A stretch of 64,000 nt of DNA from Thermosynechococcaceae cyanobacterium (GTDB taxonomy: Bacteria > Cyanobacteriota > Cyanobacteriia > Thermosynechococcales > Thermosynechococcaceae), in contig JBGTDT010000030.1 in the NCBI GenBank assembly GCA_041748155.1, positions 14,894-78,893 of the forward strand, given 5' to 3'. Positions 11,408 through 32,967 of this stretch are shown in pieces. The position numbers and the translations under genes were made by a program. The notes beneath the pieces were generated by a model, which made no database searches, was not told where the DNA came from, and saw only the letters and a list, made by a program, of their open reading frames with translations. Within the stretch, counting starts at the first letter, position 1; each line of letters starts with the position of its first letter.

Positions 11408-11477
11408 CCTTCACCCCCCACAGAAATACGTTGATATTTACTTCACTCGCACCAAGCTGGTCAAAACTTAATTGGAC

Positions 11478-12994: not shown

Positions 12995-12999
12995 TTTGG

Positions 13000-14091: not shown

Positions 14092-14303
14092 AGCTTTTTC
14101 CAGTTCGCTAAAGAGATATGATTGGGACCAGGAAAGTCATTAAGCATCAGTGCGATCCCTGATGGCAGAGTACCCAACTTCCCTACCGTTGCATTCACAC
14201 CACTGTGTGTAGTTACAACCAGCAAAATTTATGCAAAAACCAATAATTTTTGCCAAGTGAACCCTTGTGTGGTGACAATATTTGCCGAGTCAAAATTAGA
14301 CCT

Positions 14304-18667: not shown

Positions 18668-19561
18668 TCAACTGGCAGTCTCAAGAGCAGGGTTGAATGA
18701 TGGTGATTGACTCTGACTTAAGGACTGCACCAGCGGCTGAAAAATTGGCGCTAGCTCAGTCCGGCTAACCACCAAGGTTGGATAGGCGCGATCACCGTAG
18801 TTCTCTCCAACTCGTAGGGGAAAAACGTCTTCTGACCCCAAGGAGATCCACACCCCTCCGGCGGCTTGAACAATTGACCAGGCTGCTGCCAGATCCCAAA
18901 CTTTGGGGGTGGCTTCAACTCCTCCTAAGGTTGCACCGGCTGCGACCATGAGGAAATTGTAGCTTGCAGCACCCAAAAGCCGAATTTTACAGGGAACTTG
19001 TTGAACCACAGAGAGACTGCGAGAACAAACACTGAAGAAGTGATTGGGGTTCAGGGAAGCGGCACTGGTTTGAATGGGTTGTTGATTTAGAAAAGCACCA
19101 TTGGGTTGAGCGGAGGCTGACCAAAATCCATGAAATGACTGAGCCAAGGGCGGCAGGTGAACATAGCCAAACACGGGTGTGCCTTGATACAGCAGCCCCA
19201 GAGAGATTCCCCAGACTGGAATCCCACGCGCAAAGTTAGTCGTACCATCCAGCGGATCAACGACCCAGCACCACTCTGTCGGCGGGAAAATATGTTCTTC
19301 TTCTTCACTCAGAACCCCGTGATCAGGAAAGGCCGTGGCGATCGCTTGGCGGAACTGCTGGTCGGCCCAGCGATCAGACTGGGTAACTAGACTGCCATCT
19401 GCTTTCTCTGCAGCCTTTACTTGACCAAAATCAATCAATAGCTGACGACCGACCTGTGCTGTTGTAGTCTGAGCGAAGGCTAAAATAGCTGTCCAAAAAT
19501 CGCTCATTCCTACGGAGGTGTTCGTTAAACTCGTAATGCCAGTTGACTCAGACTCAGACAT
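18668..19561 (-). CDS. Inositol-monophosphatase superfamily phosphatase (SuhB / CysQ / HisN-like)
   Basis: 297 aa. Metal-site motifs LSEEEE and WVVDPLDGTTNF, and C-terminal WDLAAAWSIVQAAGG. Confidence 0.8.
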   Translation of the reverse strand: MSESESTGITSLTNTSVGMSDFWTAILAFAQTTTAQVGRQLLIDFGQVKAAEKADGSLVTQSDRWADQQFRQAIATAFPDHGVLSEEEEHIFPPTEWCWVVDPLDGTTNFARGIPVWGISLGLLYQGTPVFGYVHLPPLAQSFHGFWSASAQPNGAFLNQQPIQTSAASLNPNHFFSVCSRSLSVVQQVPCKIRLLGAASYNFLMVAAGATLGGVEATPKVWDLAAAWSIVQAAGGVWISLGSEDVFPLRVGENYGDRAYPTLVVSRTELAPIFQPLVQSLSQSQSPSFNPALETAS

Positions 19562-19674: not shown

Positions 19675-20346
19675 ATGTTGATTTCTGACAGCCACAAATT
19701 TATCTTTGTGCACGTTTACAAAACTGCCGGTACCAGTATCAGGCAGGCGTTATCAGCCTATGCTCAGCCGCTCAAGCGTCCGCTTTGCCTACGGGTCTTA
19801 AGACGGTTGGGTGCCCAGCAACTCGCCCAAAAGAACCCTTTAATGGCAATTCATCACCATTCCTCTGCCAGGCAAATTCAAGCTGCCTTTACACCTGGTG
19901 AATTTGAGCAATTTTACAAGTTTGCATTTGTGCGGAACCCTTGGGATTGGCAGGTCTCGCTTTATCACCACATGCTCAAAGAAGAATCCCACCATCAGTA
20001 TGAACTTGCCAAATCATTTGAAAGCTTTGACCAGTATATTCACTGGCGCGTCAATAATAAGCGATTGCAGAAAGATTTTGTGGCTGATGAAGGGGGCAAT
20101 TTGATCGTAGATTTTGTCGGTCACCTTGAAACCCTTGAGCCTGATTTTACATTGGTCTGCGATCGCCTTGGCCTTAACTGCCAGCTTTCTCACCTTAACC
20201 GCTCCGCCCACAAAGACTACAGGTCATACTATACGCCGGAAACAGCGGCACTTGTTGCAGAAGCATTCAAAGCAGACATCGAGTTCTTTGGATACAACTT
20301 TAACGGTCTAAAAAGCTCTAGTGAAACTGAATACCAAACAAGCTAG
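19675..20346 (+). CDS. Sulfotransferase (family-2 type)
   Basis: 223 aa. PAPS 5'-phosphosulfate loop FVHVYKTAGTSIRQAL and 3'-phosphate motif FVRNPWDWQVSLYHH. Confidence 0.75.
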   Translation: MLISDSHKFIFVHVYKTAGTSIRQALSAYAQPLKRPLCLRVLRRLGAQQLAQKNPLMAIHHHSSARQIQAAFTPGEFEQFYKFAFVRNPWDWQVSLYHHMLKEESHHQYELAKSFESFDQYIHWRVNNKRLQKDFVADEGGNLIVDFVGHLETLEPDFTLVCDRLGLNCQLSHLNRSAHKDYRSYYTPETAALVAEAFKADIEFFGYNFNGLKSSSETEYQTS

Positions 20347-20540
20347 GGCTCTATTACAAAAGTCATGTCGATGATGTTCTTTGGAGGAGGTCTGAAAAGT
20401 GGAATCCTTTGCCAAACTTGCCCCGATTCTCAAACAGCCTCTTAAGGTGTCCAGAAAAAGACAGGGTGATTTTGTCAGTTAGAGTTGACTAGGTTCTACC
20501 TGTGAAAGTCATTTGTGTAATCACTTGTGAGCGGACATAA

Positions 20541-22220
20541 ATGAAAGTTATTCAAATTGGCATGGCAAAGAGCGGTAATTATTGGCTCTATACAATCTTG
20601 AAACAAATCCTCAGCCTGTCGGGTCAGTGGCAAGGATCATTCATTCAGAACCAACCGCTTTACGCAGAAGCCAAGAAGCTAACGCTAAGTGTAAAAGATC
20701 AGATTGACATTGACGTAATGAATATTGAGGATACAGGAGTTTACTATCGGATCAGCTCCCTTCCTCCCCACCGGATTGCGAATTTGGCTAACTATCTGGA
20801 CCAGTCCTCTTTGGTTTGGACGCACTCTCCTTTTTGTACTCGTTCTTTGCAGGTTCTATCTCACTTTTCAAAGAAAGTATACATTTGCCGGGATGGACGC
20901 GATGTGGCTGTATCAGCAGCGAGATTTGCGATGACGCCCTACAAGCAGACTTTTTATCCCAATCGGTTTAATACACCCGAAGAGTACCTAGAGAATTGCC
21001 TGGATGGAAAGGCACGAAGCTGGGCCAAGCACTGTGCAGGATATTTGATCTGTCCTGATATTTACTGGGTGTTCTACGAAAGACTCCTCCATGACTTTGA
21101 TCGTGAAATCGAAGGTCTACTCAATTACCTTGAGATAGACCTCAGTGCTGAGGATAAGGCTCAGGTAAAAAACCTAGCCAGTTTTGAGACCATGAAAAAA
21201 GACAGCCCCGACCATTTGAAAAAGGGAAAATCTGGGAACTGGTCCAGTTTTATGAACGAATACCAGCAGAAAAGATTTATTGAGATTGCTGGCTCAGTCC
21301 TAGAAGTACTGGGTTACCAGGTAAATGTGTCTCCACCCACAGCGACTAAGCTGCCCGTTCGGCCTCAATCTATTAGCCCTGAACTACTGAAAGCGTATCA
21401 AAAGAATGGGGTAGGGGGAAGTAAAAAGCCAGCGCTGCTCCCTAGAGCCCTTCAAAAGTTGAACCGTTTAATTTTCCAGACGCTTAAAGCTAAAAAATCA
21501 GAATATCCGGTCAAGATTGAAATGCAGACTTCTAAAGGAAGTATTTACTTAGAAGCGTGCAGCCCAGTTGAATACTATAGACTAAAGACGGCAAGTTACG
21601 GCTATGAGAAAGATTTCTTAGTTCGCTTTACAGGCGAACTAGAAGCAGATGATATCGTCTTCGACATTGGCGCAAATGTTGGTCTGACGACTGTGTACGC
21701 TGCTGCCTTTACAGAAAATGGTCAAGTCATCGCTTTTGAGTCCGACCCTGATACGCTAGGCTATCTGAAGCACAACCTCGGTCTTAACAAGTTTTCCCAT
21801 GTTGACTTTGTCCCCTGGGTACTTGGTGATACAGAAGGCCAAGCAACCTTGTGCCCTGAAGCTGCTGGTTTTGTCTCAGGCCCAAGAGAAGACAGACCAG
21901 TTATTTCGAATGATAAGACCAGGGTGCAAGCACGAACCCTAGACAGCGCCATCTTGAGTGGAGATTTACCCCTGCCAACTGTGCTAAAAATTGACATTGA
22001 GGGGGCTGTAGTTTTGTGTCTTAGAGGTGGGTCAAAATTATTGAACGCAGAGATAGGAGACAAGCCTCGCTTGATTTTTCTTAAACTATATCCAGACTTA
22101 CTTGCCTCATTTAACTCTAGTTCTGATCAGGTTCATCGGTTTCTATTGAGCAAGGGCTATTCGGTGGTCTGGGAGCAGCAACGCAATGCTCAGATCCACT
22201 ATTGCTATAAAACGAACTAA
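20541..22220 (+). CDS. Two-domain protein: N-terminal sulfotransferase plus C-terminal FkbM-family methyltransferase
   Basis: 559 aa. N-terminal half: GMAKSGNYWL, YICRDGRDVAVSAARF, KKGKSGNWSSFM (sulfotransferase-1/3 type motifs). C-terminal half: VFDIGANVGLTTVYAA, VIAFESDPD, VLKIDIEGA (FkbM/Methyltransf_21 type). Confidence 0.75.
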   Translation: MKVIQIGMAKSGNYWLYTILKQILSLSGQWQGSFIQNQPLYAEAKKLTLSVKDQIDIDVMNIEDTGVYYRISSLPPHRIANLANYLDQSSLVWTHSPFCTRSLQVLSHFSKKVYICRDGRDVAVSAARFAMTPYKQTFYPNRFNTPEEYLENCLDGKARSWAKHCAGYLICPDIYWVFYERLLHDFDREIEGLLNYLEIDLSAEDKAQVKNLASFETMKKDSPDHLKKGKSGNWSSFMNEYQQKRFIEIAGSVLEVLGYQVNVSPPTATKLPVRPQSISPELLKAYQKNGVGGSKKPALLPRALQKLNRLIFQTLKAKKSEYPVKIEMQTSKGSIYLEACSPVEYYRLKTASYGYEKDFLVRFTGELEADDIVFDIGANVGLTTVYAAAFTENGQVIAFESDPDTLGYLKHNLGLNKFSHVDFVPWVLGDTEGQATLCPEAAGFVSGPREDRPVISNDKTRVQARTLDSAILSGDLPLPTVLKIDIEGAVVLCLRGGSKLLNAEIGDKPRLIFLKLYPDLLASFNSSSDQVHRFLLSKGYSVVWEQQRNAQIHYCYKTN

Positions 22221-22231
22221 GTTCTCTAGAG

Positions 22232-23215
22232 ATGGTTAATTCCAGAGTATCTATTGTGATTCGTTGCTACAACGAAGAGCAACACATCGGTCGTCTACTC
22301 AGTGGTATTATTCAGCAGACCGTTCAAGATGTAGAAATTATTATCGTGGACTCCGGTTCCACTGATGCCACCCTGCTGATTGCATCGCGCTATCCAGTCA
22401 AAGTACTTTCGATTCGACCAGAAGACTTTTCCTTTGGGCGATCGCTCAACCTGGGTTGTCAGGCAGCGACCAGCGAGTTTCTGGTCATTGCCAGCGCTCA
22501 CGTTTACCCGGTGTATCAAGATTGGCTGGAGCGATTGTTAGCCCCGTTTTCCGATCCACAGGTTGCTTTGGCCTACGGCAAGCAGCGAGGCAATGAGATC
22601 ACGAAGTACTCCGAGCATCAAGTTTTTGCCAGATGGTTTCCGAGTGAATCCAACCTGAGCCAGGATTATCCTTTCTGTAACAATGCCAACGCTGCTATCC
22701 GGCGATCGCTGTGGGAACGGTTGCCCTACAACGAAGCCCTGACGGGATTAGAAGACCTACACTGGGCCAAGCAAGTCATCCAGTTAGGCTATAAAATTGC
22801 CTACGCCTCAGAGGCTGAGATTGTGCATGTACACAACGAAACCCCCCGGCGAATCTTTAATCGGTATCGGCGCGAAGCGATCGCCCTGAAGCATATTTTT
22901 CCGCAGGAACAATTTAACCTCTGGGATTTTATCCGCCTACTGATTACAAATGTCGCTAGCGACTACTACCATGCCAAGCATGATAGAGTCTTGACGAAAA
23001 ATCTTCTCTCTATCCCCACTTTTCGGAGTATGCAATTCTGGGGAACTTACCAGGGTTTTACCCAACAGGGTCCGATTACCAGCCAGCTCAAGCATACCTT
23101 CTACTATCCCCGTGGCCTAGCACGTCCGATCAACCCTTTGACAGCTTCTCACAACAGACCCACGATTGACTACAACAAATCCACCCAGGAGCAATCTATT
23201 GAGCAGGTACATTGA
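22232..23215 (+). CDS. Family-2 glycosyltransferase
   Basis: 327 aa. VSIVIRCYNEEQHIGRLLSGIIQQT ... IIIVDSGSTDAT, and LEDLHWA. Confidence 0.85.
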   Translation: MVNSRVSIVIRCYNEEQHIGRLLSGIIQQTVQDVEIIIVDSGSTDATLLIASRYPVKVLSIRPEDFSFGRSLNLGCQAATSEFLVIASAHVYPVYQDWLERLLAPFSDPQVALAYGKQRGNEITKYSEHQVFARWFPSESNLSQDYPFCNNANAAIRRSLWERLPYNEALTGLEDLHWAKQVIQLGYKIAYASEAEIVHVHNETPRRIFNRYRREAIALKHIFPQEQFNLWDFIRLLITNVASDYYHAKHDRVLTKNLLSIPTFRSMQFWGTYQGFTQQGPITSQLKHTFYYPRGLARPINPLTASHNRPTIDYNKSTQEQSIEQVH

Positions 23216-23840
23216 TATCTCAGTACCCGTATCTCCTGACTTACCTGCCTGGCCGGGTAGTCCCCCTATAGAACTTCAGCGTCGCCTCGATCTAGGGCAA
23301 GGCGATATCGTTAACGATACAACCCTGCATTTCAGTGTCCACACAGGCACTCACGTTGATGCTCCCCTCCACTTCTTAGCTGAGGGAAACAGCGTTGAAC
23401 ATCTACCGCTAGAAGTTCTGATCGGTCCAGCAGTCGTGGTCGATTTGCCAGATACGAATGCAGTATCTTCAGAAATTCTAGAGCAGTTGCCGCTGCCCCC
23501 AGGTGTGGAGCGCTTATTGATTCGTACTCGTAATTCCCGTCTATGGCAAGCAGACGTGCAAAAATTTCAGCCAGACTTTGTTGCCTTAACTGCCGATGCA
23601 GCCGAGTGGATTGTTGATCACGAGATTCGACTGATCGGTGTAGACTATCTCTCCGTACAGCGGTTTCACGACGGGCCAGAAACTCACTTAAATTTACTCA
23701 AAGCCGAAGTCGTAATTCTCGAAGGACTGAATCTAGCCTATGTCCAGGCAGGAGAGTACGAGCTAATATGCCTGCCAGTGATGCTAAAGGGGGTTGAGGG
23801 AGCACCAGCAAGAGCCATTTTACGGAGCTTTCTAAGTTGA
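23166..23840 (+). CDS. Cyclase-family metal hydrolase (kynurenine/aryl-formamidase-like)
   Basis: HTGTHVDAPLHF motif and DYLSV. The start is uncertain: TTG at 23166 or TTG at 23199, and both overlap the 3' end of the GT2 gene. Confidence 0.7.
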   Translation: MTTTNPPRSNLLSRYIDISVPVSPDLPAWPGSPPIELQRRLDLGQGDIVNDTTLHFSVHTGTHVDAPLHFLAEGNSVEHLPLEVLIGPAVVVDLPDTNAVSSEILEQLPLPPGVERLLIRTRNSRLWQADVQKFQPDFVALTADAAEWIVDHEIRLIGVDYLSVQRFHDGPETHLNLLKAEVVILEGLNLAYVQAGEYELICLPVMLKGVEGAPARAILRSFLS

Positions 23841-23861
23841 AATTAAAGGAGAGTGGTAGAG

Positions 23862-24635
23862 ATGCTAGTCATTTCAAATGGGGCGTTCAAGAGTGGATCT
23901 ACCTGGCTATATAATATTTTGCGTTGTATGACAGGCTTTCCTCCCCCTCCTGAGGAGTTCTTAAACCCTAACTGGGTAAATCCTTCAATTGATCCAGAAA
24001 AACTTACAAAATTTCTTAAAGAGGTTGATTTTTCTCACAAAAACTATTTGTGTAAAAATCACTTCGGTGGAAAATACCAGAGGGATCTTTTGCTAGCTTC
24101 TCCAAACGTTTTTATTTTAGATATAAAAAGAGATATTCGCGATGTAGTTGTTTCAGCATATTATCATCATCGCCGCAAGGGATACGATGAAAGCTTCAAA
24201 AATTATTATTGGAAAAAAGGCAAAAAAGTTGCTAACTTCGTTAGTAGTTATCAAAGAAATTGGGATGTTCAATCAACTAAAATTCTTATTGCATCCTATG
24301 AAAAACTACATTCTGATTTTAACAGTGAAACAAAGAAGATAGGAGACTTTTTGGGAATTCAAGTATCCGACCAGCTAAGTGAACAAATTAAAACTGAGAC
24401 AACCCTTGATAGTTTAAGAAATAGGTACGGAGAAAGTGACCAGAGTGATGATTCAAAATTTTTTAGAAAAGGAGTTATAGGAGATTGGCAAAATCATTTT
24501 GATGCCAAAATGGATCAAGATCTTGAGAAAGTGCAGAAGTTCAGTTTAAGTCACTCTGACAAAATTCAAGTAGAAATAACAAAACTTTATACTAAGACTA
24601 AGCGGAAAATAGAGCATTTGTTTTTGCCGAGTTGA
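23862..24635 (+). CDS. Sulfotransferase (family-1 type)
   Basis: GAFKSGSTWLYN, ILDIKRDIRDVVVSAYYH, FFRKGVIGDWQNHF. The ATG at 23862 is preceded by AAGGAG; an alternative GTG lies at 23853. The gene is AT-rich. Confidence 0.8.
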   Translation: MLVISNGAFKSGSTWLYNILRCMTGFPPPPEEFLNPNWVNPSIDPEKLTKFLKEVDFSHKNYLCKNHFGGKYQRDLLLASPNVFILDIKRDIRDVVVSAYYHHRRKGYDESFKNYYWKKGKKVANFVSSYQRNWDVQSTKILIASYEKLHSDFNSETKKIGDFLGIQVSDQLSEQIKTETTLDSLRNRYGESDQSDDSKFFRKGVIGDWQNHFDAKMDQDLEKVQKFSLSHSDKIQVEITKLYTKTKRKIEHLFLPS

Positions 24636-24823
24636 AGCAATGAAGATGTTGAGAAAAAGCCTTGTTTGATAGCTATAGCTGGCTTGTTGAGGGCCAAGTA
24701 TGGTTGGTGTAGACTGAACAGAATGAATTATTACACTTACCTTCATAAAGCTAACTTCTAAAGCTAATAGGAGTGAAAGAAACCCTTTGAGAAAGTAGTT
24801 TTAGAGAGGAGTGATAACAGGTG

Positions 24824-25666
24824 ATGAGGCAGTTCTATTCTTATCTGAAAGAACAACATAGTACTCACCAGTTTCGGGTAGACTTAAAGCATAGTTTGCA
24901 GAGAAAAGAAGCTATTTTGGTCCACACGATGGGTAAGGTAGGTTCATCTTCGATTAGAAAATCCCTCAAGGATTTGGAGTTGAGTATGCCCATTTACGGT
25001 ACCCACTTTCTAAATTCTGAACGCTTAGAAGCACATTTAAAAGTATTGAGACAAAAAGGTCAGAAGCCCGACGGTCATTTGGTAGTGAGTCAATGCCTCC
25101 AAGAAGTAATTAACAAAGGCATTAGTGATATAAATTGGAAAGTCATTACCCTTGTTAGAGAGCCAATTTCCAGGAATGTTTCAGGATTGTTTCAAAATAT
25201 TGATAAAATCTTTCCTAACTTTCTGCAGCGATATCACTCTGGTTCGCTCTCAATTCAGGAAGTTGTCAATGTTTTCCTCGCTGATTATCCCCATGAGCTA
25301 CCTTTAAACTGGCTAGACTGGGAAATAAAAGCTGTGTTTGGTATTGATGTTTTTTCAGTTAACTTTCCAAAGTCTGATGGCTATACAATATTTCATAGAA
25401 ATAATATAGACCTGCTGTTGCTAAGACTAGAAAGCCTTGCCGACTGTTCATTTAAAGCCTTTAGTGAGTTTTTAGGGACAAGAGAATTCACGCTTAAGAA
25501 GGCGAATGACTCAAGTGAGAAGGAATATTCTCAGGCTTATCGAGAATTTCGAAAATCTTTGCATCTTCCTCAAACTTATATAGAAGATATGTATCAGTCT
25601 AAGTATGTACAACATTTTTACACTCAGAACGAAATTGAGCTATTTCAGGCAAAATGGTCAAAGTAG
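24824..25666 (+). CDS. Divergent sulfotransferase-like protein
   Basis: VHTMGKVGSSSIRKSL (P-loop-like PAPS motif) and TLVREPISRNVSGLFQN (an R-x-P-x-x-R-x-x-S type motif). The gene is AT-rich. The family call is tentative. Confidence 0.5.
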   Translation: MRQFYSYLKEQHSTHQFRVDLKHSLQRKEAILVHTMGKVGSSSIRKSLKDLELSMPIYGTHFLNSERLEAHLKVLRQKGQKPDGHLVVSQCLQEVINKGISDINWKVITLVREPISRNVSGLFQNIDKIFPNFLQRYHSGSLSIQEVVNVFLADYPHELPLNWLDWEIKAVFGIDVFSVNFPKSDGYTIFHRNNIDLLLLRLESLADCSFKAFSEFLGTREFTLKKANDSSEKEYSQAYREFRKSLHLPQTYIEDMYQSKYVQHFYTQNEIELFQAKWSK

Positions 25667-25716: not shown

Positions 25717-26421
25717 ATGAGTAATGTCGCTGCCCTTGTTCCCATGCGCCACACTAGTGAACGGGTTCTTGGTAAGAACTACCGACCCTTTGCTGGACGG
25801 CCACTTTATCATCACATTATCGAAACCTTACTCAACTGCCCTGAAATTAAGCTTGTCTGTATTGACACAGATAGCTCTATGATTATCGAGGATGCTCGCC
25901 AGCATTTCCCCGATGTTAAAATCTTGCTCCGACCTGAGCACCTGCGAGCTGGGACAACTCCCATGAACGACGTGCTGGTAAACTCGGTCTCTCAGGTTGA
26001 TAGTGATGTTTTTCTGCAGACCCACAGTACCAATCCCCTGCTACGGGCTAAAACAATTTCCCAAGCAATCAGTCTGCTGCTCAATAGCCCTGACTACGAC
26101 AGTCTCTTTGGGGTGACCAGACTACAGACGCGGCTGTACGATGCCGCTGGTAAAGCAATGAATCACGACCCCAAGGTTTTGTTGCGAACGCAGGATCTGC
26201 CGCCAGTCTATGAAGAAAATTCAAACCTCTACGTCTTCAGGCGAGATACTTTGTTAGAGCGAAAGAATCGCGTTGGTAGGAGGCCACTTTTGTTTGAAAT
26301 TGACCCCCACGAGGCCTGGGATATAGATGAAGAGGTGGATTTTCGGATTGCTGAGCTACTTTACTTGGATCGACAAACCAGTCCTTCAGCGGAGAGAAAA
26401 ACATGGGCTGGCGAGTTCTGA
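25717..26421 (+). CDS. Acylneuraminate/Kdo-type cytidylyltransferase (CMP-sugar synthetase family)
   Basis: 234 aa. AALVPMRHTSERVLGKNYRPFAGRPLYHHII ... CIDTDS ... LQTHSTNPLL matches the NeuA/KdsB fold pattern. Confidence 0.75.
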   Translation: MSNVAALVPMRHTSERVLGKNYRPFAGRPLYHHIIETLLNCPEIKLVCIDTDSSMIIEDARQHFPDVKILLRPEHLRAGTTPMNDVLVNSVSQVDSDVFLQTHSTNPLLRAKTISQAISLLLNSPDYDSLFGVTRLQTRLYDAAGKAMNHDPKVLLRTQDLPPVYEENSNLYVFRRDTLLERKNRVGRRPLLFEIDPHEAWDIDEEVDFRIAELLYLDRQTSPSAERKTWAGEF

Positions 26422-27353
26422 TCACCTGTCCACCAATGCTACTGACTTTAGCAGAGTGCCAGGCAAGATTCACCACAGAAAACCTGGAAATAGTAGCGCC
26501 TAAAGTCGTACAACAGCTCAGCGAGGCAGAACTTTGTGAAATTATTTCTAATTTTGACGGGGTGATTGCCGGGGATGATCCCTTTACTGCTAAGGTTTTG
26601 GAGAAAGGTCGGCAAGGACGCCTACGAGTCCTGGCGAAATGGGGAATTGGCGTCGATGCGATTGACCTGGTTGCTGCACAAAGACTGGGTATACATACAT
26701 CTAATACCCCAAATGTATTTGGAGACGAAGTTGCTGATGTTGCCTTGGGTTACACAATTCTCCTGGCTCGCCGACTTCATCAAATTGATGCAGCTATTCG
26801 TCAGGGTCAATGGCTGAAAGTTCAGGGTACATCGCTGCGCGGTAAGGTGGCAGGGGTTGTTGGTGTCGGCAGTATTGGCAAAGCGATCGCCCGCCGTTTT
26901 AATACTTTGGGCATGCAGGTGCTTGGCTATGACGTTTACCCGATTGATCCTGCCTTCTGCCAGGAAACGGGTTTGCACCAGGTAGCGTTAGACGACTTGC
27001 TGTGTCAGGTTGATTGCGTTGTCCTCTCCTGTAGTTTGAATTCCAACAACTATCATCTATTGAACGAACAAGCCTTTTCAAGCATGAAAAACGGCGTCTG
27101 GATCGTTAATGTGGCGCGTGGACCCCTGATCGATGAAAAAGCCCTAGTCTCAAGTTTAGAGACTGGAAAAGTAGGGGGAGCCGCCCTGGACGTATTTGAA
27201 TCCGAGCCCCTCGCCCTGGGACACCCTCTACTCAACTATCCGCAAGTTATTGTCGGCAGTCATAATAGTTCTAATACCCGCGAAGCGGTCTTGCGAGTCA
27301 ATCAGCTTGCGATTGACAACTTAGTGCGTGGTTTGAGACAAAATACTGGCTAG
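26403..27353 (+). CDS. D-isomer-specific 2-hydroxyacid dehydrogenase family protein
   Basis: 316 aa. NAD motif GVVGVGSIGKAIARR, NVARGPLIDEKAL, and AALDVFESEP ... GSHNSSNT. Confidence 0.85.
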   Translation: MGWRVLITCPPMLLTLAECQARFTTENLEIVAPKVVQQLSEAELCEIISNFDGVIAGDDPFTAKVLEKGRQGRLRVLAKWGIGVDAIDLVAAQRLGIHTSNTPNVFGDEVADVALGYTILLARRLHQIDAAIRQGQWLKVQGTSLRGKVAGVVGVGSIGKAIARRFNTLGMQVLGYDVYPIDPAFCQETGLHQVALDDLLCQVDCVVLSCSLNSNNYHLLNEQAFSSMKNGVWIVNVARGPLIDEKALVSSLETGKVGGAALDVFESEPLALGHPLLNYPQVIVGSHNSSNTREAVLRVNQLAIDNLVRGLRQNTG

Positions 27354-27369
27354 ATGCTAGCTAGAGTGA

Positions 27370-28116
27370 ATGATGAAGCAAGTTGTCCTGATCACGGGCA
27401 TAGCAGGGGGTATTGGCTCTGCCACCGCAGCCCTGTTTTCCTCAAAAGGTTGGTACGTGGTTGGCGTTGACCAGAAATCTGCTAAGGGGACTGGCAGTGA
27501 TTACTATATTCAAGCTGATGCATCTGACCCTAAACAAATTTCTAATGTTGTAGAACAAGTTGGACAAAACCTGGGCAGGTTGGATGCACTAGTCAACAAC
27601 GCAGCGATTCAAATCTGTAAGCCCATCCTTGAGATGAGTGTGGCGGAGTGGGATAGGATTATGGCGGTTAATCTACGTTCCACCTTTGTCTGCTCTCAGG
27701 CCGCTCACCCCCTGCTGAAGGCAACTCAAGGGAGTATTGTCAATGTTAGCTCTGTCCATGCGATCGCAACCTCTGCTAATATTGCAGCTTATGCAGCCAG
27801 CAAGGGAGCGATCGTGGCCTTTACTCGCGCCTTGGCAATTGAATTTGCACCTGAGCAGATTCGGGTCAATGCTATACTGCCTGGTGCTGTAGATACGCCA
27901 ATGCTGCATGCAGGCTTGCAGCGAGGACACATTTCAGGAATACTGAATGAGCAGATGGATAAGCTGGGTAAGAAAACGGTCCTTGGTAGAGTTGGTAAAC
28001 CTGATGAAATTGCCGAAGCAATTCTGTTCTTGGCTAGTGCTCAACAGTCTTCCTTCATGACTGGCCAAGCATTGGTTGTGGATGGAGGAGCCACAACAAG
28101 ATTGAGTACTGAGTAA
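27370..28116 (+). CDS. Short-chain dehydrogenase/reductase (SDR)
   Basis: 248 aa. TGIAGGIGSA, NNAAI, catalytic SSVHA...YAASK, and PGAVDTPM. Confidence 0.9.
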   Translation: MMKQVVLITGIAGGIGSATAALFSSKGWYVVGVDQKSAKGTGSDYYIQADASDPKQISNVVEQVGQNLGRLDALVNNAAIQICKPILEMSVAEWDRIMAVNLRSTFVCSQAAHPLLKATQGSIVNVSSVHAIATSANIAAYAASKGAIVAFTRALAIEFAPEQIRVNAILPGAVDTPMLHAGLQRGHISGILNEQMDKLGKKTVLGRVGKPDEIAEAILFLASAQQSSFMTGQALVVDGGATTRLSTE

Positions 28117-28182
28117 CTATTCAACTGGGCTAGCAGTAGTTTTTTAAGCTAGAGTTAGAACTGCTTCAGGTACTTATTTTGA

Positions 28183-29016
28183 TTGGAAGAAATAGTGAGC
28201 GATTTAGTGAGGAAACCCCTTCACCAAGTTAAAGCAGTAGTAACAAAAGCGTACTTAAATTATTACTCCACTTCACTACGCTGGATGTGGTACTTAGAGC
28301 ACTCTAAACATTTATTGAAGTTCAAGGATGCTCATCAAGGTGAAAGTTGCTTCATTATTGGTAATGGTCCTTCTCTGAACAAGATGGATCTTTCTGAACT
28401 TAAAGATTGCTATACGTTTGGTCTAAATAAAATTTATTTACTCTTTGATAAAGTTGATTTGAATCTTAGCTACCATGTAGCAATGAATCCGCTGGTTATC
28501 GAGCAAAGCGCAAAAGAATTTGAATCTTTATACTGTCCATCTTTTTTATCCTATCGACATGCGCGCAGAATTGTTCATAACCTCGACCACGTGTATTTTA
28601 TCCTGTCAGGAAAATCGTTTACTTTTCAAACTGATTTATCCCAACCAGTTTGTGAGGGCCATACAGTAACCTATGTAGCCCTGCAAATTGCCTTTTACAT
28701 GGGGTTTAGCCAAGTTTTTTTAATTGGCGTCGATCATAACTTTGTTGCTGTTGGAAATCCCAACGAAAAACAGTTTCTTCAAGGAGAAGATCCTAACCAT
28801 TTTGCACCTGGCTATTTTGGCAACAAAGAATGGCACCTACCAGACTTAGAGGCATCTGAGCGAGCCTATAATCTTGCAAAACTGTACTTCAGTCAAGCCG
28901 GTCGTCAGGTTTACGATGCCACGGTCGGGGGTAAACTAGAGGTTTTTCCAAAAACTTCCTACGAGCAGGCTCTAACTATTTGTAGTAGGCAAGTAGTTAG
29001 GACTGGTCAAGTCTAG
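28183..29016 (+). CDS. DUF115 (MptE/Maf-like) / GT42 sialyltransferase-like transferase
   Basis: CFIIGNGPSLNKMDLSELKDCYTFGLNKIY parallels the Cst-II-type IIAGNGPSL...FRCNQFY N-terminus as recalled. GHTVTYVALQIAFYMGFSQVFLIGVDHNF parallels the second conserved block. The TTG start is uncertain. Confidence 0.6.
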   Translation: MEEIVSDLVRKPLHQVKAVVTKAYLNYYSTSLRWMWYLEHSKHLLKFKDAHQGESCFIIGNGPSLNKMDLSELKDCYTFGLNKIYLLFDKVDLNLSYHVAMNPLVIEQSAKEFESLYCPSFLSYRHARRIVHNLDHVYFILSGKSFTFQTDLSQPVCEGHTVTYVALQIAFYMGFSQVFLIGVDHNFVAVGNPNEKQFLQGEDPNHFAPGYFGNKEWHLPDLEASERAYNLAKLYFSQAGRQVYDATVGGKLEVFPKTSYEQALTICSRQVVRTGQV

Positions 29017-30379: not shown

Positions 30380-31324
30380 ATGAAAACTCCTATTGCTTTT
30401 CTAATCTTCAATCGGCCTGATACGACTAGAAAGGTATTTGAAGTTATTCGCCAAGTAAAACCACCCCAACTTTTAGTCGTTGCTGACGGCCCACGTCTAG
30501 AGCGACCCAATGAAGCAGAAAACTGTGCCGTTGTGCGGTCGATTATTGAGCGGGTTGATTGGGACTGCAAAGTATTGACCAATTATTCTGAGGTCAATTT
30601 GGGTTGTAAGAAACGCATCTCAAGCGGTTTGGACTGGGTTTTTAATACCGTAGAAGAAGCAATTATTCTTGAAGATGACTGTTTACCACACGCTACTTTC
30701 TTTCGCTTCTGCAAGGAATTACTGGAGAAGTATCGAAACGATACTAGAATTATGCATATTGGCGGTAACAATTACAATATTTCAGGTAGAAATCTAGATG
30801 ACAGCTACTACTTTTCAAGGGCGAATGCCGTTTGGGGTTGGGCAAGCTGGCGTAGAGCATGGCAGTACTTCGATGTAGACATGAGTCAGTGGCCTACACT
30901 AGTAAAAGAAAACAGGCTTGTGGATATGCTGGGCTCTCAGAAAGAAGCTGAAATCCGATATAGATATTGGAGCAAAGTCTATGCAGGAGATGTTAACGCA
31001 TGGTCCTATCAGTGGCACCTCGCCTGTCTGTGCCAAGGGGCATACTCTGTAGTACCCAATAGAAATCTTGTTTCTAATATAGGTTTCAATCAAGACAGTA
31101 CTCATACTGTTGATTCAACTAGCCCTTTTGCAAATCTAGAGACCCATGAGATGAAGTTTCCCCTTACCCATCCCAAGTTTATTGCTAAAGATAGTTATGC
31201 CTACAACCTATATTTTAGACAGCTATATAGTCCTAGACTTACAGATAAAATTAGTATAAAACTTAAAAAGGTAGCATCCAGGCTCAAGTCAGCATTTAAG
31301 CTTGAGCTACCTCGAATCAACTAA
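30380..31324 (+). CDS. Putative GT-A-fold nucleotide-sugar transferase (HlpA/GNT-I-like)
   Basis: 314 aa. PIAFLIFNRPDTTRKVFEVIRQVKPPQLLVVADGPR and ILEDDCLP (DxD-like) motifs. Confidence 0.45.
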   Translation: MKTPIAFLIFNRPDTTRKVFEVIRQVKPPQLLVVADGPRLERPNEAENCAVVRSIIERVDWDCKVLTNYSEVNLGCKKRISSGLDWVFNTVEEAIILEDDCLPHATFFRFCKELLEKYRNDTRIMHIGGNNYNISGRNLDDSYYFSRANAVWGWASWRRAWQYFDVDMSQWPTLVKENRLVDMLGSQKEAEIRYRYWSKVYAGDVNAWSYQWHLACLCQGAYSVVPNRNLVSNIGFNQDSTHTVDSTSPFANLETHEMKFPLTHPKFIAKDSYAYNLYFRQLYSPRLTDKISIKLKKVASRLKSAFKLELPRIN

Positions 31325-31629: not shown

Positions 31630-32967
31630 ATGCCACATCTAGATCTTAGAGCTGAAAGTGTGGGGTTTGAGCATACAGAGTTAATACCACTTTGTGAAAT
31701 CACCCAGCGAGTCATAGACGGAGAAATCATCGTTGTACCCAGGTGCATGCAAGCTATTGGCTACTTCGAGCAATTAAAGCAGGCCAGTCTGGAAGGAATT
31801 CGCCGGGTGGTTGGTCAGGAGAAAGCCGCACAAGTTGAACGCGAGGGGTTTGAAGCGATTCATTCAGTTATTGATGCGGATGAACTGATCCCGATTACTG
31901 ACTGTACCTACGAGATTTTTGGCTCAATTGCGCCGATCTTGGTCAAAAAGGTAGTACAAGAAGTGCTTCTGAGAGATAGACCCTTTTACTACGAAGCCTA
32001 CCCTAACGTGCGGTTCCATGTTCCCTACGACGTAGGGGTACAGAAGAAGCAAAAATTTAGTGAATTTTTGCAAAGACGTGGGAATGGAAAGATTACGGCC
32101 CATGGACCACACCACGACAGTTGGTATCAGTGTCCCAGCAACGGCATCAATATCTGGATTGCTATTGGTCCTGTCAAGACTGGTAATGGGTTAAGTCTAT
32201 ATCCTCAGGTGTATGGAAAGCGTCTTCCTTGTACAAAAGATGGTGTAATCATGCGCGATCAGTACTTTGGGCCAGCCCTAAATTTTGAGTTGAAACCTGG
32301 GGATGCCCTGGTCTTTCATGGCGAGCATCTGCACAGCTCAGAGCTGAATAGCACGGGTACAACTCGACACGTCGTAAGTTTCCGAATCACCCTGGAAAAA
32401 CCTAAATTTCTGAATCAATCCTGTCACAACTATCTATACTCTGGGTCTAGTGGTGGGCTAATGGAAGGACTGGTTCAGCTTCCTGCGGCTAAGATGTTCC
32501 GCAGCCTTGTAAGACTACTTCAGAGCAGATTAAACACTAAGTTTCTGACACTTGGAAGGCAATCAAGCCCATCGCAGCAAGGCTCAGAGACCAACAGCGA
32601 TGTTCCAATGTTTCAAAATACATTAGTTGACTTCCCTAAAACGATCCAGGCTAAGAGTGCTGAAGATAAGACTAAGCTTATCTTTGACTCCTCTGAGTTA
32701 ACGATAGGTGAGATCCGCCCCCTGTCACCAGAAGTCTGTGTTGCACGTCCAGAGAAGCACCGCGTAGTAGCCTTCAGCAGGTATTGTCCCCATGAAGGAG
32801 CTGATCTAGCAGCAGGCTACTTGCGAGATGGGTGTATCGCCTGTCCTTGGCATAATCTACCCTTTGACCTAGAGAATGGCGCTAGCCCCTGTCAATCGTT
32901 GCGTCAGCTACCTGTCTTTGACTGCCTTCAACGCGGTGATGAGGTAGAGGTAAACTTGGGAGCATGA
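31630..32967 (+). CDS. Fusion of a PhyH-like Fe(II)/2-oxoglutarate dioxygenase domain with a C-terminal Rieske [2Fe-2S] domain
   Basis: 445 aa. Candidate facial triad in AHGPHHDSW and FHGEHLHSS. The C-terminal CPHEGADLAAGYLRDGCIACPWH is a C-x-H-x16-C-x2-H Rieske motif. Confidence 0.65.
   Translation: MPHLDLRAESVGFEHTELIPLCEITQRVIDGEIIVVPRCMQAIGYFEQLKQASLEGIRRVVGQEKAAQVEREGFEAIHSVIDADELIPITDCTYEIFGSIAPILVKKVVQEVLLRDRPFYYEAYPNVRFHVPYDVGVQKKQKFSEFLQRRGNGKITAHGPHHDSWYQCPSNGINIWIAIGPVKTGNGLSLYPQVYGKRLPCTKDGVIMRDQYFGPALNFELKPGDALVFHGEHLHSSELNSTGTTRHVVSFRITLEKPKFLNQSCHNYLYSGSSGGLMEGLVQLPAAKMFRSLVRLLQSRLNTKFLTLGRQSSPSQQGSETNSDVPMFQNTLVDFPKTIQAKSAEDKTKLIFDSSELTIGEIRPLSPEVCVARPEKHRVVAFSRYCPHEGADLAAGYLRDGCIACPWHNLPFDLENGASPCQSLRQLPVFDCLQRGDEVEVNLGA

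What the first reader, a model, noticed from the sequence alone, without database searches (positions are those of the whole stretch)
25717..29016. CMP-sugar module (cytidylyltransferase, 2-hydroxyacid dehydrogenase, SDR, DUF115/GT42-like transferase) without any NeuB/NeuC-type synthase
A NeuA/KdsB-fold cytidylyltransferase is translationally overlapped (19 nt) with a D-2-hydroxyacid dehydrogenase. An SDR follows, then a protein whose GNGPSL block and second block (VTYVALQIAFYMGFSQVFLIGVDH) resemble Campylobacter Cst-type sialyltransferases and DUF115/Maf proteins. In flagellin-glycosylation islands, NeuA-like (PtmB), SDR (PtmA) and Maf/DUF115 genes co-occur and handle CMP-nonulosonic acids. 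Here the module sits in an EPS-type island of a cyanobacterium. No aldolase-type synthase, epimerase or aminotransferase for a nonulosonate is visible. The activated sugar could therefore be an unusual 2-keto or hydroxy-acid sugar, or the precursor genes lie elsewhere.
Basis: partly seen in the sequence, partly recalled or inferred. Interest (0 to 1): 0.7.

Follow-up and report, generated by a model that had tools for sequence, protein, structure and literature searches.

The report
Synthase-less CMP-keto-sugar-acid cassette in EPS island
A cyanobacterial slime-polysaccharide island carries a widely shared, uncharacterised gene cassette that appears to make, CMP-activate and attach an acidic keto-sugar without any of the usual sialic-acid or Kdo-type synthases, which points to a possible new route to this class of sugars.

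Summary
Four co-directional genes sit at 25717-29016: a NeuA/PseF-like cytidylyltransferase (CT), a D-2-hydroxyacid dehydrogenase (2-HADH) overlapping it by 19 nt, a classical SDR, and a DUF115/MptE-like protein whose model best matches CMP-sialic-acid sialyltransferases. No NeuB, KdsA, HpcH, NanA or Eda-type synthase occurs in the 64-kb window.

The real unit is larger. Across at least 10 phyla the conserved operon is GT2-[KynB-like hydrolase]-CT-2-HADH-SDR. In 30 full-flank loci, the GT2 is present in 28, the hydrolase in 13, a DUF115-type protein in 14 and a synthase in none. The window's GT2 and hydrolase lie at 22232-23840.

The CT carries an invariant Arg at the position that confers Kdn (non-aminated) specificity in the closest solved structure. 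Sister cassettes pair the same CT clade with an HpcH pyruvate aldolase, a sialate-anomerase-like protein or NeuB, so ulosonic-acid chemistry is well supported.

The best reading is a CMP-activated, non-aminated 2-keto sugar acid. It is either produced by two NAD-linked oxidations (aldose to aldonate to 2-keto-aldonate) or re-epimerised ElaABC-style from an acid made elsewhere. The sugar's identity is unknown. I rate it a new variant of a known kind and a good experimental lead.

The parts
22232..23215 (+). GT2-family glycosyltransferase ('GT2a'). It is the most tightly linked partner of the CT. The canonical DxD position reads a conserved A-S-A-H.
   Evidence: PF00535, 81.9 bits. A homologue is present in 28/30 full-flank cassettes, directly upstream of the CT in 24. 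S88-A89-H90 is invariant in 27 homologues and aligns to N-S-D-D of canonical GT2s. The AF2 model has pLDDT 78, and its nearest PDB structures are PcManGT, TarP/TarS, WrtF and RmlT.
23166..23840 (+). KynB-like (Pfam 'Cyclase') metal-dependent hydrolase. It is a facultative cassette member. The true start is probably downstream of the 50-nt overlap with the GT2.
   Evidence: PF04199, 96.8 bits. Kynurenine formamidase structures match at E 7e-37. The HxGTHxDxPxH motif is conserved. It is present in 13/30 group-A loci and in several sister loci. Natural GT2-hydrolase fusions exist: P0307, P0312, P0338.
23853..24635 (+). Sulfotransferase. It is island-specific, inserted between the hydrolase and the CT, and is not part of the conserved cassette.
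   Evidence: PF00685, 87.6 bits. No homologue was found in the related loci.
24821..25666 (+). NKWYS-family putative capsule-synthesis protein. It accompanies the cassette only in some cyanobacteria.
   Evidence: PF10364, 92.8 bits. Homologues occur in L002, L009 and L013 only.
25717..26421 (+). Cytidylyltransferase of the NeuA/PseF/Kdn-synthetase type. It belongs to a new, tightly conserved clade.
   Evidence: PF02348, 124.6 bits. PseF scores 87 bits (cutoff 205.7) and KdsB models 21-42 bits, all below cutoff. The best PDB match is 9t4z, a CMP-Kdn synthetase (PMC12934254). R11, K20, D202-I-D204 and Arg185 (equivalent to the Kdn gate-keeper Arg196) are conserved in 83 relatives.
26403..27353 (+). 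NAD-type D-2-hydroxyacid dehydrogenase, translationally coupled to the CT by a 19-nt overlap.
   Evidence: PF02826 and PF00389. All NCBIfam equivalogs fall below cutoff (PGDH 209 of 454). The R239/E268/H287 triad is conserved and PGDH's 'RS' motif is replaced by 'GDD'. Asp177 at the end of beta2 is present in 46/46 sequences. It lies directly after the CT in the 45 group-A loci.
27370..28116 (+). Classical NAD-type short-chain dehydrogenase (SDR).
   Evidence: adh_short_C2, 210.9 bits. It scores 195 bits against the glucose 1-dehydrogenase subfamily, cutoff 215. Nearest PDB structures are BacC and Thermoplasma aldohexose/glucose 1-dehydrogenases. The S-Y-K residues are invariant and Asp34 is present in 42/43.
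28183..29016 (+). DUF115/MptE-like protein. It is the candidate CMP-ulosonate glycosyltransferase, with a sialyltransferase-like fold. The likely start is GTG at 28195.
   Evidence: PF01973, 46.2 bits, above the gathering cutoff of 34.6. There are weak local hits to WaaZ (Kdo III transferase, 1.7e-5) and PseD. The AF2 model has pLDDT 86.5. Foldseek's top hits are CstII (E 5e-5, prob 1.0, TM 0.35-0.38) and GT29 sialyltransferases. It is present in 14/30 cassettes. It forms a CT-HpcH-DUF115 triad in L049.

Best explanation
The window carries a mobile, widely distributed polysaccharide-decoration cassette: GT2(SAH)-[KynB-like hydrolase]-CT-2-HADH-SDR, here followed by a DUF115 transferase. It supplies and installs a CMP-activated, non-aminated 2-keto sugar acid (ulosonic-type residue) on a sulfated, pyruvylated exopolysaccharide.

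Shown:
- The CT has an intact NeuA-type catalytic apparatus and a Kdn-type Arg in the sugar pocket.
- Both dehydrogenases have intact catalytic residues and NAD-type cofactor sites.
- The DUF115 protein has a sialyltransferase-like fold.
- No known ulosonate synthase is linked, here or in 30/30 comparable loci.
- Sister cassettes couple the same CT clade to an HpcH pyruvate aldolase, a sialate-anomerase-like protein or NeuB.

Inferred mechanism, with each step unproven:
1. The SDR oxidises a free aldose at C1 to the lactone, which opens to the aldonate. The metal hydrolase may help where it is present.
2. The 2-HADH, whose family acts on the carbon next to a carboxylate (as GhrB/TkrA and KguD do on 2-ketogluconates), oxidises C2 to give a 2-keto-aldonic (hex- or higher 2-ulosonic) acid.
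3. The CT, translationally coupled to the 2-HADH, traps it as the CMP-glycoside.
4. The DUF115 enzyme transfers it to the growing EPS repeat. In loci that lack DUF115, the metal-site-altered GT2 might do this instead.

The identity of the sugar is not known.
For: Domain identities.

CT:
- The closest solved structure is a CMP-Kdn synthetase (PMC12934254).
- Arg185 aligns to its specificity-determining Arg196, while the mouse Neu5Ac enzyme has Leu there.
- Arg185 and the catalytic residues are invariant or conservatively substituted in 83 relatives.

Synteny: CT-2-HADH-SDR in 45 loci from at least 10 phyla. In 30 full-flank loci, GT2 28, hydrolase 13, DUF115 14, KdsA/NeuB/HpcH 0. NanA, Eda and Edd give 0 hits anywhere.

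Sister contexts that tie the clade to ulosonic acids:
- CT-HpcH aldolase in 14 loci.
- A minimal CT-HpcH-DUF115 triad in L049.
- A YhcH/NanQ-like anomerase next to the CT.
- A genuine NeuB next to the CT in a haloarchaeon.

DUF115 fold: CstII and GT29 sialyltransferases are the top hits.

2-HADH: intact triad, not PGDH-like (GDD in place of RS).

SDR: nearest structures include aldohexose and glucose 1-dehydrogenases, and it scores near the NCBIfam GDH subfamily cutoff.

Cofactors: both dehydrogenases carry the NAD-type Asp after beta2 (46/46 and 42/43). This fits two oxidations better than an oxidise-then-reduce pair.

The cassette also occurs in a Patescibacteria MAG (L066). Members of that group usually have reduced genomes (my own knowledge), so this weakly argues for self-sufficiency.
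Against: - No enzyme was assayed and the sugar is unidentified.
- I know of no precedent for a CMP-activated non-3-deoxy 2-ulosonic acid. Searches of the held paper library found no polysaccharide containing a hex-2-ulosonic acid and no description of the cassette.
- Flavobacterial sister loci keep the same 2-HADH subtype (GDD motif) alongside an HpcH aldolase that already yields a 2-keto acid. So the 2-HADH need not be what creates the keto group. It could make hydroxypyruvate there, or modify the acid.
- The SDR's similarity to aldose dehydrogenases is generic for classical SDRs.
- The ElaABC/EpaAB precedents show that 'CT + two oxidoreductases' can simply re-epimerise an acid made elsewhere.
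- Whole genomes could not be searched for unlinked synthases.
- DUF115 is missing from about half of the cassettes. Its TM-scores to sialyltransferases are low (0.31-0.38), and it has no sequence-level PDB hit.
Confidence: 0.4

Rival explanations
1. ElaABC/EpaAB-like 'activate and epimerise' cassette. An ulosonic acid such as Kdn or Kdo is made by an unlinked synthase. The CT activates it, one dehydrogenase oxidises a side-chain or ring carbinol of the CMP-sugar, and the other reduces it from the opposite face. The resulting CMP-epimer is transferred by DUF115 or the GT2.
For: There is direct precedent. ElaB is a CTP_transf_3 CT, ElaA a Gfo/Idh/MocA oxidase and ElaC an SDR reductase, together making CMP-8-epi-Leg (PMC13656337). 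EpaA (CT fused to an aldo-keto reductase) and EpaB (SDR) lie on prophages far from the Pse genes (PMC12053666). Sister locus L054 has CT-HpcH-Gfo/Idh/MocA. The flavobacterial sister loci keep the same 2-HADH subtype even though an aldolase is present.
Against: - D-2-hydroxyacid dehydrogenases act on the carbon adjacent to a carboxylate. In a CMP-ulosonate that carbon is the blocked anomeric carbon (family knowledge).
- Both dehydrogenases look NAD-type.
- No synthase lies within 10 kb in 30/30 loci. These include monoderm phyla that are not expected to make Kdo (my own knowledge) and a Patescibacteria MAG.
- The Ela genes sit inside the Leg gene cluster (PMC13656337).
Confidence: 0.3
2. The CT activates a conventional non-aminated acid (Kdn or Kdo) made elsewhere, and DUF115 transfers it. 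The 2-HADH and SDR are not in the sugar-acid pathway. Instead they make a non-carbohydrate substituent such as glycerate, lactate or hydroxybutyrate, or the acceptor for the GT2/hydrolase pair.
For: - The Kdn-type Arg in the CT.
- GT2-hydrolase fusions show a second functional sub-unit within the cassette.
- The 2-HADH scores well against glyoxylate/hydroxypyruvate reductase models.
Against: - The CT and 2-HADH overlap by 19 nt, and the three genes directly abut in the 45 group-A loci across at least 10 phyla. That argues for one pathway.
- No acyl- or ether-transferase for such a substituent is conserved in the cassette.
- No synthase is linked.
Confidence: 0.12
3. The product is not a glycosyl donor. 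The CT makes a CMP- or CDP-linked hydroxy-acid or phospho-acid (a glycerate-type headgroup), and the MptE-like protein acts as a kinase or phosphotransferase, as the archaeal MptE does, installing a phosphodiester-linked acid.
For: PF01973 is named for an archaeal pyrophosphokinase, and that structure (8sd5) is among the fold hits (E 2e-3, TM 0.38-0.47). The 2-HADH resembles PGDH and glycerate dehydrogenases overall. UniRef auto-names the GT2 'glucosyl-3-phosphoglycerate synthase'.
Against: - The CT is NeuA/PseF/Kdn-like over its whole sugar-binding half and keeps sugar-pocket residues.
- The clade pairs with NeuB, HpcH aldolases and a sialate-anomerase-like protein.
- Sialyltransferases outrank the kinase in the fold search.
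- PGDH's phosphate-binding 'RS' motif is absent.
- The GT2 model resembles polymer-decorating GT2s, with no GpgS among the 50 matches listed.
Confidence: 0.06

Closest known systems
CMP-Kdn / CMP-sialic acid synthetases (NeuA/CMAS; closest solved structure Prymnesium parvum PpNeuA, PDB 9t4z)
   Same: Same fold and Pfam family. The P-loop Arg and Lys and the D-I-D metal site are conserved. An Arg sits at the position that makes PpNeuA Kdn-specific (PMC12934254).
   Different: Sequence similarity to 9t4z is low (59 bits, E 4.7e-15). All NCBIfam equivalog cutoffs are missed. There are clade-specific invariant residues, for example His103 where NeuA has Gln, and Asn106. No Kdn-9-P or NeuB-type synthase is linked.
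ElaABC and EpaAB cassettes of Acinetobacter/Vibrio (CMP-nonulosonate C8 epimerisation)
   Same: Same three-part logic: a dedicated CTP_transf_3 cytidylyltransferase plus two NAD(P) oxidoreductases, one of them a classical SDR. Both behave as a mobile module inside polysaccharide loci (PMC13656337, PMC12053666).
   Different: The second oxidoreductase here is a D-2-hydroxyacid dehydrogenase, not Gfo/Idh/MocA or an aldo-keto reductase. The substrate pocket is of the non-aminated type. No Leg or Pse genes are nearby. The cassette additionally carries a GT2 and a KynB-like hydrolase.
GT42 (CstI/CstII), GT29 sialyltransferases, GT73 WaaZ and Maf/DUF115 nonulosonate transferases
   Same: The DUF115 protein passes PF01973. 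It has an N-terminal GNGPS nucleotide-binding-type motif and a sialyltransferase-like fold, and it sits next to a CMP-acid synthetase.
   Different: It has no sequence-level match to any solved sialyltransferase, and TM-scores are only 0.31-0.38. There is no flagellin context, unlike Maf. It is a small single-domain protein (about 270 aa) in an EPS locus. The donor and acceptor are unknown.
Keto-aldonate oxidoreductases: GhrB/TkrA and KguD (2-HADH family); glucose or aldohexose 1-dehydrogenases and gluconate 5-dehydrogenase (SDR family)
   Same: The two dehydrogenase families in the cassette are the ones that interconvert aldoses, aldonates and 2-keto-aldonates in catabolism (family knowledge). 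The catalytic residues are intact.
   Different: Those enzymes are catabolic and mostly run in the reductive direction. Here the genes are embedded in, and translationally coupled to, a nucleotide-sugar activation step. All curated equivalog cutoffs are missed.
Sister cassettes found here: CT-HpcH/HpaI aldolase (+/- NanQ-like anomerase, HAD, extended SDR, 2-HADH, hydrolase)
   Same: Same CT clade (46-55% identity). The same hydrolase family recurs, often the same 2-HADH subtype, and DUF115 is often present.
   Different: They contain a class II pyruvate aldolase that can build a 2-keto-(3-deoxy) acid directly. The window's group has no aldolase of any type tested.

Membership tests
CTP_transf_3 CMP-ulosonate synthetase (NeuA/KdsB/PseF superfamily) | Pfam PF02348 above the gathering score, matched over the full domain | tested here: met
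   124.6 bits against 22.6; profile positions 1-199 of 217.
CTP_transf_3 CMP-ulosonate synthetase (NeuA/KdsB/PseF superfamily) | N-terminal Arg/Lys triphosphate-binding residues and the C-terminal D-x-D Mg site | tested here: met
   R11 (R or K in nearly all relatives), K20 (83/83), D202 and D204 (82 of 83 sequences each, counting one alignment gap). They align to PpNeuA Arg19 and Lys28.
Specific equivalogs: PseF, KdsB, NeuA | Score above the NCBIfam curated cutoff | tested here: not met
   PseF scores 87.4 against 205.7. KdsB models score 21-42 against 155-281. No NeuA model is listed.
Kdn-type (non-aminated) CMP-sialate synthetase | Hydrophilic Arg at the C5-substituent gate-keeper position (PpNeuA Arg196) | tested here: met
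   Arg185 aligns to it without gaps, and mouse CMAS has Leu there. It is invariant in the 83 relatives apart from one alignment gap. This is a sequence alignment only, with no structure of this protein.
Nonulosonic acid (NAB) or Kdo biosynthesis cluster | A linked NeuB/PseI/LegI or KdsA condensing synthase | tested here: not met
   No hit in the six-frame ORFs of the window, and none in 30/30 full-flank group-A loci. NanA, Eda and Edd are also absent.
DUF115 / MptE-like (PF01973) | Pfam model above the gathering score | tested here: met
   46.2 bits against 34.6. Homologues carry precomputed PF01973.
GT42 sialyltransferase (CstII type) | Sequence-level family membership | tested here: not met
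   phmmer against PDB sequences finds no sialyltransferase even at E<=1.
GT42 sialyltransferase (CstII type) | Sialyltransferase-like GT-A variant fold | tested here: inconclusive
   CstII 1ro8 is the top Foldseek hit (E 5e-5, prob 1.0), but TM is only 0.35-0.38. GT29 enzymes and MptE HPPK follow.
GT42 sialyltransferase (CstII type) | Catalytic His base and phosphate-binding Tyr residues in equivalent positions | not tested
   An invariant D180-H181 exists in the family alignment. No residue-level structural superposition was possible with the tools.
Maf flagellin nonulosonate glycosyltransferase | Flagellin or flagellar gene context and a multidomain (about 600 aa) architecture | tested here: not met
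   The protein is 273-277 aa with a single domain. Its neighbours are EPS genes. PseD scores only 15.7 bits against a cutoff of 670.
ElaABC/EpaAB CMP-nonulosonate epimerase cassette | A dedicated CT plus an SDR | tested here: met
   The family definitions come from PMC13656337 and PMC12053666.
ElaABC/EpaAB CMP-nonulosonate epimerase cassette | Second oxidoreductase of the Gfo/Idh/MocA or aldo-keto reductase type, and co-occurrence with Leg or Pse synthesis genes | tested here: not met
   The second enzyme is a 2-HADH. No NulO genes occur in the window or in the group-A loci.
D-3-phosphoglycerate dehydrogenase (SerA/PGDH) | Equivalog cutoff and the Arg-Ser anion-binding motif | tested here: not met
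   TIGR01327 scores 209 against 454. The motif position reads G-D-D in nearly all group-A sequences. The location of the motif in PGDH is from my own knowledge.
GT2 inverting glycosyltransferase (canonical, metal-dependent) | GT-A fold and PF00535 | tested here: met
   81.9 bits. Foldseek finds PcManGT, TarP and WrtF at E 1e-14 to 1e-13.
GT2 inverting glycosyltransferase (canonical, metal-dependent) | DxD metal/diphosphate-binding motif | tested here: not met
   The position aligns to an invariant S-A-H, against S-D-D in two canonical GT2s.

The most novel reading that the evidence does not exclude
The cassette encodes a third, aldolase-independent route to ulosonic acids. Two NAD-dependent oxidations (an aldose 1-dehydrogenase-like SDR, then a C2-specific 2-HADH) convert an ordinary sugar into a non-3-deoxy 2-keto-aldonic acid. 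A dedicated NeuA-like enzyme traps it as a previously unknown CMP-sugar, and a small DUF115 sialyltransferase-like enzyme, or a DxD-less GT2, installs it on polysaccharides of bacteria from more than ten phyla.
Probability: 0.3. Interest if true: 0.85.

Novelty: new variant of a known kind. Interest (0 to 1): 0.62.

Why it matters
As far as I know, CMP-activated ulosonic acids (sialic, Kdn, Kdo, Pse, Leg) are all built by condensing a three-carbon unit (PEP) with a sugar. A conserved cassette that has the activating enzyme and a sialyltransferase-like enzyme but no synthase implies one of two things. Either there is an unrecognised biosynthetic route and a new nucleotide sugar, or there is a broadly mobile 'epimerise and activate' module outside the pathogens in which that logic was discovered.

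The cassette is found in Cyanobacteria, Chloroflexota, Actinomycetota, Desulfobacterota, Nitrospirota, Planctomycetota, Bacteroidota, Omnitrophota and Patescibacteria. Alpha-keto acid sugars are labile to acid hydrolysis (my own knowledge), so standard EPS composition analyses may have missed them, and the residue may be a widespread, overlooked acidic cap on environmental polysaccharides.

It also supplies candidate enzymes for chemo-enzymatic glycan synthesis: a Kdn-type CT clade, a compact DUF115 transferase and a DxD-less GT2. Culturable carriers such as Rippkaea orientalis PCC 8801 and Arthrobacter isolates make the question directly testable.

Tried and rejected
1. PGDH/serine-pathway reading of the 2-HADH. 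Rejected: it scores below cutoff and lacks the RS motif.

2. PtmA/PtmB/Maf flagellin-island analogy. Rejected on context and architecture. PtmA's known role in Leg precursor supply is from my own knowledge.

3. UniRef's 'glucosyl-3-phosphoglycerate synthase' name for the GT2. Not supported: the fold neighbours listed are polymer-decorating GT2s.

4. Loci with a close CT but no dehydrogenases, considered as alternative pathways. L028 has the CT flanked by a transposase and an integrase, and L013 is truncated or degenerate.

5. The no-Pfam 'c12' protein as a DUF115 replacement. The hhalign support is only moderate: 70% probability, E 4e-5, confined to the GxGPS region. I treat it as possible only.

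6. Literature searches for the cassette, for HpcH + CT pathways, for DUF115 in polysaccharides, for hex-2-ulosonic acid polysaccharides and for Dha biosynthesis found nothing on this system. The SugarBase preprint reports new CMP-acids, but not from organisms with this cassette.

7. My first idea, that the 2-HADH must be what creates the keto group, was weakened. Flavobacterial sister loci have the same 2-HADH subtype together with an aldolase. I kept the idea because GhrB/TkrA-type enzymes are known to use both hydroxypyruvate and 2-ketogluconate (my own knowledge).

8. ORF-based clustering mis-called genes in high-GC loci. I replaced it with tblastn-based counts.

Full report
OBSERVATION.

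The four ORFs exist exactly as described, all on the + strand:
- 25717-26421, 234 aa.
- 26403-27353, 316 aa. It overlaps the first gene by 19 nt, which I read directly from the sequence.
- 27370-28116, 248 aa.
- 28183-29016, 277 aa from a TTG start. The identical database protein P0121 is 273 aa, so the start is probably GTG at 28195.

Pfam assigns them as follows:
- CTP_transf_3, 124.6 bits.
- 2-Hacid_dh_C and 2-Hacid_dh, 184 and 69 bits.
- adh_short_C2, 211 bits.
- MptE-like/DUF115 (PF01973), 46.2 bits against a gathering score of 34.6.

The genes lie in a low-GC stretch of about 24 kb, roughly 19.6-43.9 kb. That stretch also encodes three sulfotransferases, an NKWYS protein, a pyruvyl transferase, a PhyH-Rieske fusion, many GT2 and GT4 enzymes and a GDP-mannose dehydratase. 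It is therefore a sulfated, pyruvylated EPS-type island. Best hits and a CT tree place the window among cyanobacteria.

No condensing synthase is present. Pfam on 30 of the window's larger ORFs, spanning 9314-45515 and so covering the island, shows none. phmmer with KdsA, NeuB, HpcH, NanA, Eda and Edd probes finds nothing in any six-frame ORF of the whole window.

WHAT THE UNIT REALLY IS.

The CT belongs to a tightly conserved clade, with 68-78% identity across cyanobacteria and to a cable bacterium. I fetched 80 species-representative loci around relatives of the CT and scored them with tblastn.

In 45 loci the CT is followed directly by the 2-HADH and the SDR ('group A'). These come from Cyanobacteria, Chloroflexota, Actinomycetota, Desulfobacterota, Nitrospirota, Planctomycetota, Myxococcota, Pseudomonadota, Omnitrophota and Patescibacteria.

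In the 30 group-A loci with full flanks:
- A homologue of the window's GT2 (22232-23215; 43-75% identity) is present in 28, directly upstream of the CT in 24.
- A KynB-like 'cyclase' hydrolase (the homologue of window 23166-23840) lies between the GT2 and the CT in 13.
- A DUF115 protein is present in 14.
- A no-Pfam 'c12' protein with a GTGPS motif is present in 6. It is only possibly related to DUF115 (hhalign 70% probability).
- KdsA, NeuB and HpcH are present in 0.

So the conserved operon is GT2-[hydrolase]-CT-2-HADH-SDR. The DUF115 gene is a frequent but facultative member. In the window, a sulfotransferase and the NKWYS gene have been inserted between the hydrolase and the CT.

Natural GT2-hydrolase fusion proteins exist (P0307, P0312, P0338), which ties those two functions together.

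The GT2 has an ordinary GT-A fold. Its nearest structures are PcManGT, TarP/TarS, WrtF and RmlT. However, its DxD position is an invariant S-A-H.

EVIDENCE THAT THE CHEMISTRY IS ULOSONIC-ACID CHEMISTRY.

(i) The CT matches NeuA/PseF-type enzymes over its whole length, but matches KdsB only over the nucleotide-binding half. Its closest solved relative, 9t4z, is the CMP-Kdn synthetase of Prymnesium parvum. In that enzyme Arg196 is the gate-keeper for a C5-hydroxyl (Kdn) rather than an N-acetyl substrate (PMC12934254). The window's Arg185 aligns to that residue without gaps, while the mouse Neu5Ac enzyme has Leu there. Arg185, the catalytic Arg/Lys and the D-I-D metal site are invariant or conservatively substituted in 83 relatives.

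(ii) A sister set of 14 loci ('group B', CT 46-55% identical) places an HpcH/HpaI class II pyruvate aldolase directly after the CT. It is often accompanied by a YhcH/NanQ-type protein resembling N-acetylneuraminate anomerase, a HAD hydrolase, an extended SDR, a 2-HADH and the same hydrolase family. One locus, L049, which sits inside the group-A CT clade, has just CT-HpcH-DUF115. That is a minimal 'make, activate, transfer' triad.

(iii) In a haloarchaeon, a CT of the same clade sits next to a genuine NeuB.

(iv) The AF2 model of the DUF115 protein (pLDDT 86.5) finds CstII (GT42) first, then GT29 sialyltransferases. The archaeal MptE kinase ranks behind them. TM-scores are low (0.31-0.38) and there is no sequence-level PDB hit. 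Weak local matches to WaaZ (Kdo III transferase) and PseD point the same way.

THE TWO DEHYDROGENASES.

Both are catalytically intact. The 2-HADH has R239/E268/H287 and the SDR has Ser/Tyr/Lys.

The 2-HADH is not a PGDH. It scores 209 bits against a cutoff of 454, and a conserved G-D-D occupies the position of PGDH's Arg-Ser motif.

The SDR scores just under the NCBIfam glucose 1-dehydrogenase subfamily cutoff (195 of 215). Its nearest structures include Thermoplasma aldohexose and glucose 1-dehydrogenases. That similarity is generic for classical SDRs.

Both carry the Asp at the end of beta2 that marks NAD rather than NADP preference (46/46 and 42/43).

MECHANISTIC READING.

Established family knowledge is that D-2-hydroxyacid dehydrogenases act on the carbon next to a carboxylate. 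Examples are GhrB/TkrA and KguD, which interconvert gluconates and 2-ketogluconates. In an ulosonic acid, that carbon is the anomeric keto carbon.

The simplest pathway that uses only what the cassette encodes is:
1. Aldose to aldonolactone and then aldonate, by the SDR. The metal hydrolase may assist where present.
2. Aldonate to 2-keto-aldonate, by the 2-HADH.
3. 2-Keto-aldonate to the CMP-glycoside, by the CT, which is translationally coupled to the 2-HADH.
4. Transfer by DUF115, or conceivably by the DxD-less GT2 in loci that lack DUF115.

This explains the absence of any synthase in 30/30 loci. It also explains the presence of the cassette in monoderm phyla, which are not expected to make Kdo, and in a Patescibacteria MAG. 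It fits the non-aminated CT pocket and the two NAD-type enzymes.

It remains inference. Nothing was assayed. I know of no CMP-activated non-3-deoxy ulosonic acid, and the held paper library contains neither a polysaccharide with such a residue nor any description of this cassette.

MAIN RIVAL.

The ElaABC cassette consists of the CT ElaB, the Gfo/Idh/MocA oxidase ElaA acting on the CMP-sugar, and the SDR reductase ElaC (PMC13656337). The prophage-borne EpaAB pair consists of a CT fused to an aldo-keto reductase, plus an SDR (PMC12053666). Both show that 'CT + two oxidoreductases' can be an epimerise-and-activate module for an acid made elsewhere.

In favour of this rival, flavobacterial group-B loci keep the same 2-HADH subtype even though an aldolase already provides the keto acid. 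Locus L054 also has a Gfo/Idh/MocA enzyme in that slot.

Against it are the regiochemistry of the 2-HADH family, the two NAD-type cofactor sites and the complete lack of linked synthases.

The group-B observation can be reconciled with the self-contained route if the 2-HADH there supplies hydroxypyruvate to the aldolase. GhrB-type enzymes are known to use both hydroxypyruvate and 2-ketogluconate (my own knowledge). That reconciliation is speculative.

The two readings therefore remain close: about 0.4 for the self-contained route and about 0.3 for the Ela-like rival.

COMPARISON AND NOVELTY.

The system works like a CMP-ulosonate pathway (activate, then transfer). It does not qualify as a member of the NeuA, PseF or KdsB equivalogs, a NAB or Kdo cluster, GT42, Maf or ElaABC. 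The membership table gives the details.

It is best described as a new variant of a known kind. The CT clade, the coupling to a 2-HADH, the SAH-GT2/hydrolase pair and the small DUF115 transferase have no description that I could find.

If the dehydrogenase route is real, it would be a new way to make ulosonic acids, and its product would be a new nucleotide sugar.

The flagellin-island analogy and the four-gene boundary do not.

Noticed in passing
window 22232-23215 (and homologues, alignment A3): The GT2 glycosyltransferase has its canonical DxD replaced by an invariant S-A-H while keeping an ordinary GT-A fold. This may indicate altered metal or donor usage.
   Followed up: partly
proteins P0307, P0312, P0338 (homologues of window 22232-23840): Natural fusion proteins of about 538 aa join the GT2 to the KynB-like 'cyclase' hydrolase. 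This is a Rosetta-stone link between the two cassette genes.
   Followed up: partly
L049 9992-12339; L054, L070-L071, L076-L082, L085 around 10000-14500: Sister cassettes have the CT followed by an HpcH/HpaI pyruvate aldolase, with or without a NanQ-like anomerase, HAD, extended SDR, 2-HADH and hydrolase. This is a candidate non-NeuB ulosonic-acid synthase pathway that appears to be uncharacterised.
   Followed up: partly
window 20541-22220: A single 559-aa ORF fuses a Sulfotransfer_1 domain to an FkbM-type methyltransferase domain.
   Followed up: no
window 31630-32967: A 445-aa protein combines a PhyH-like dioxygenase region with a C-terminal Rieske 2Fe-2S domain inside the EPS island. It might hydroxylate a sugar or substituent.
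   Followed up: no
window 33191-35392: A 733-aa polysaccharide pyruvyl transferase has an N-terminal extension of about 390 aa with no Pfam match.
   Followed up: no
window 18668-19561 (- strand) and 19675-24635: An inositol-monophosphatase-family protein, possibly a CysQ-like PAP phosphatase, sits next to three sulfotransferases. That would fit PAPS-dependent sulfation of the EPS.
   Followed up: no
window 30380-31324 and 38654-40021: Two island ORFs (314 and 455 aa) have no Pfam or NCBIfam match. The first gave only one weak tblastn match (25% identity, L015) among the related loci, and the second none.
   Followed up: no
window 9314-14091 (- strand): A type IV pilus pilM-pilN-(ORF)-pilQ secretin operon flanks the island on the higher-GC side.
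   Followed up: no
L004 1330-2375 (Ca. Electrothrix gigas): The only NeuB near a cassette with the CT, 2-HADH and SDR is split by a frameshift into two ORFs. It may be a pseudogene or an assembly error.
   Followed up: partly
L028 2338-6258: A NeuB-cupin (lyxose-isomerase-like) fusion sits next to a Capsule_synth (KpsS/KpsC-like) protein. The neighbouring CT is flanked by a transposase and an integrase.
   Followed up: partly
L002 13592-14845 and seven other loci (alignment A2): A family of proteins of about 415 aa with no Pfam match, carrying GTGPS, CNS and GxDGR motifs, recurs next to the cassette where DUF115 is absent. It may be a divergent transferase.
   Followed up: partly
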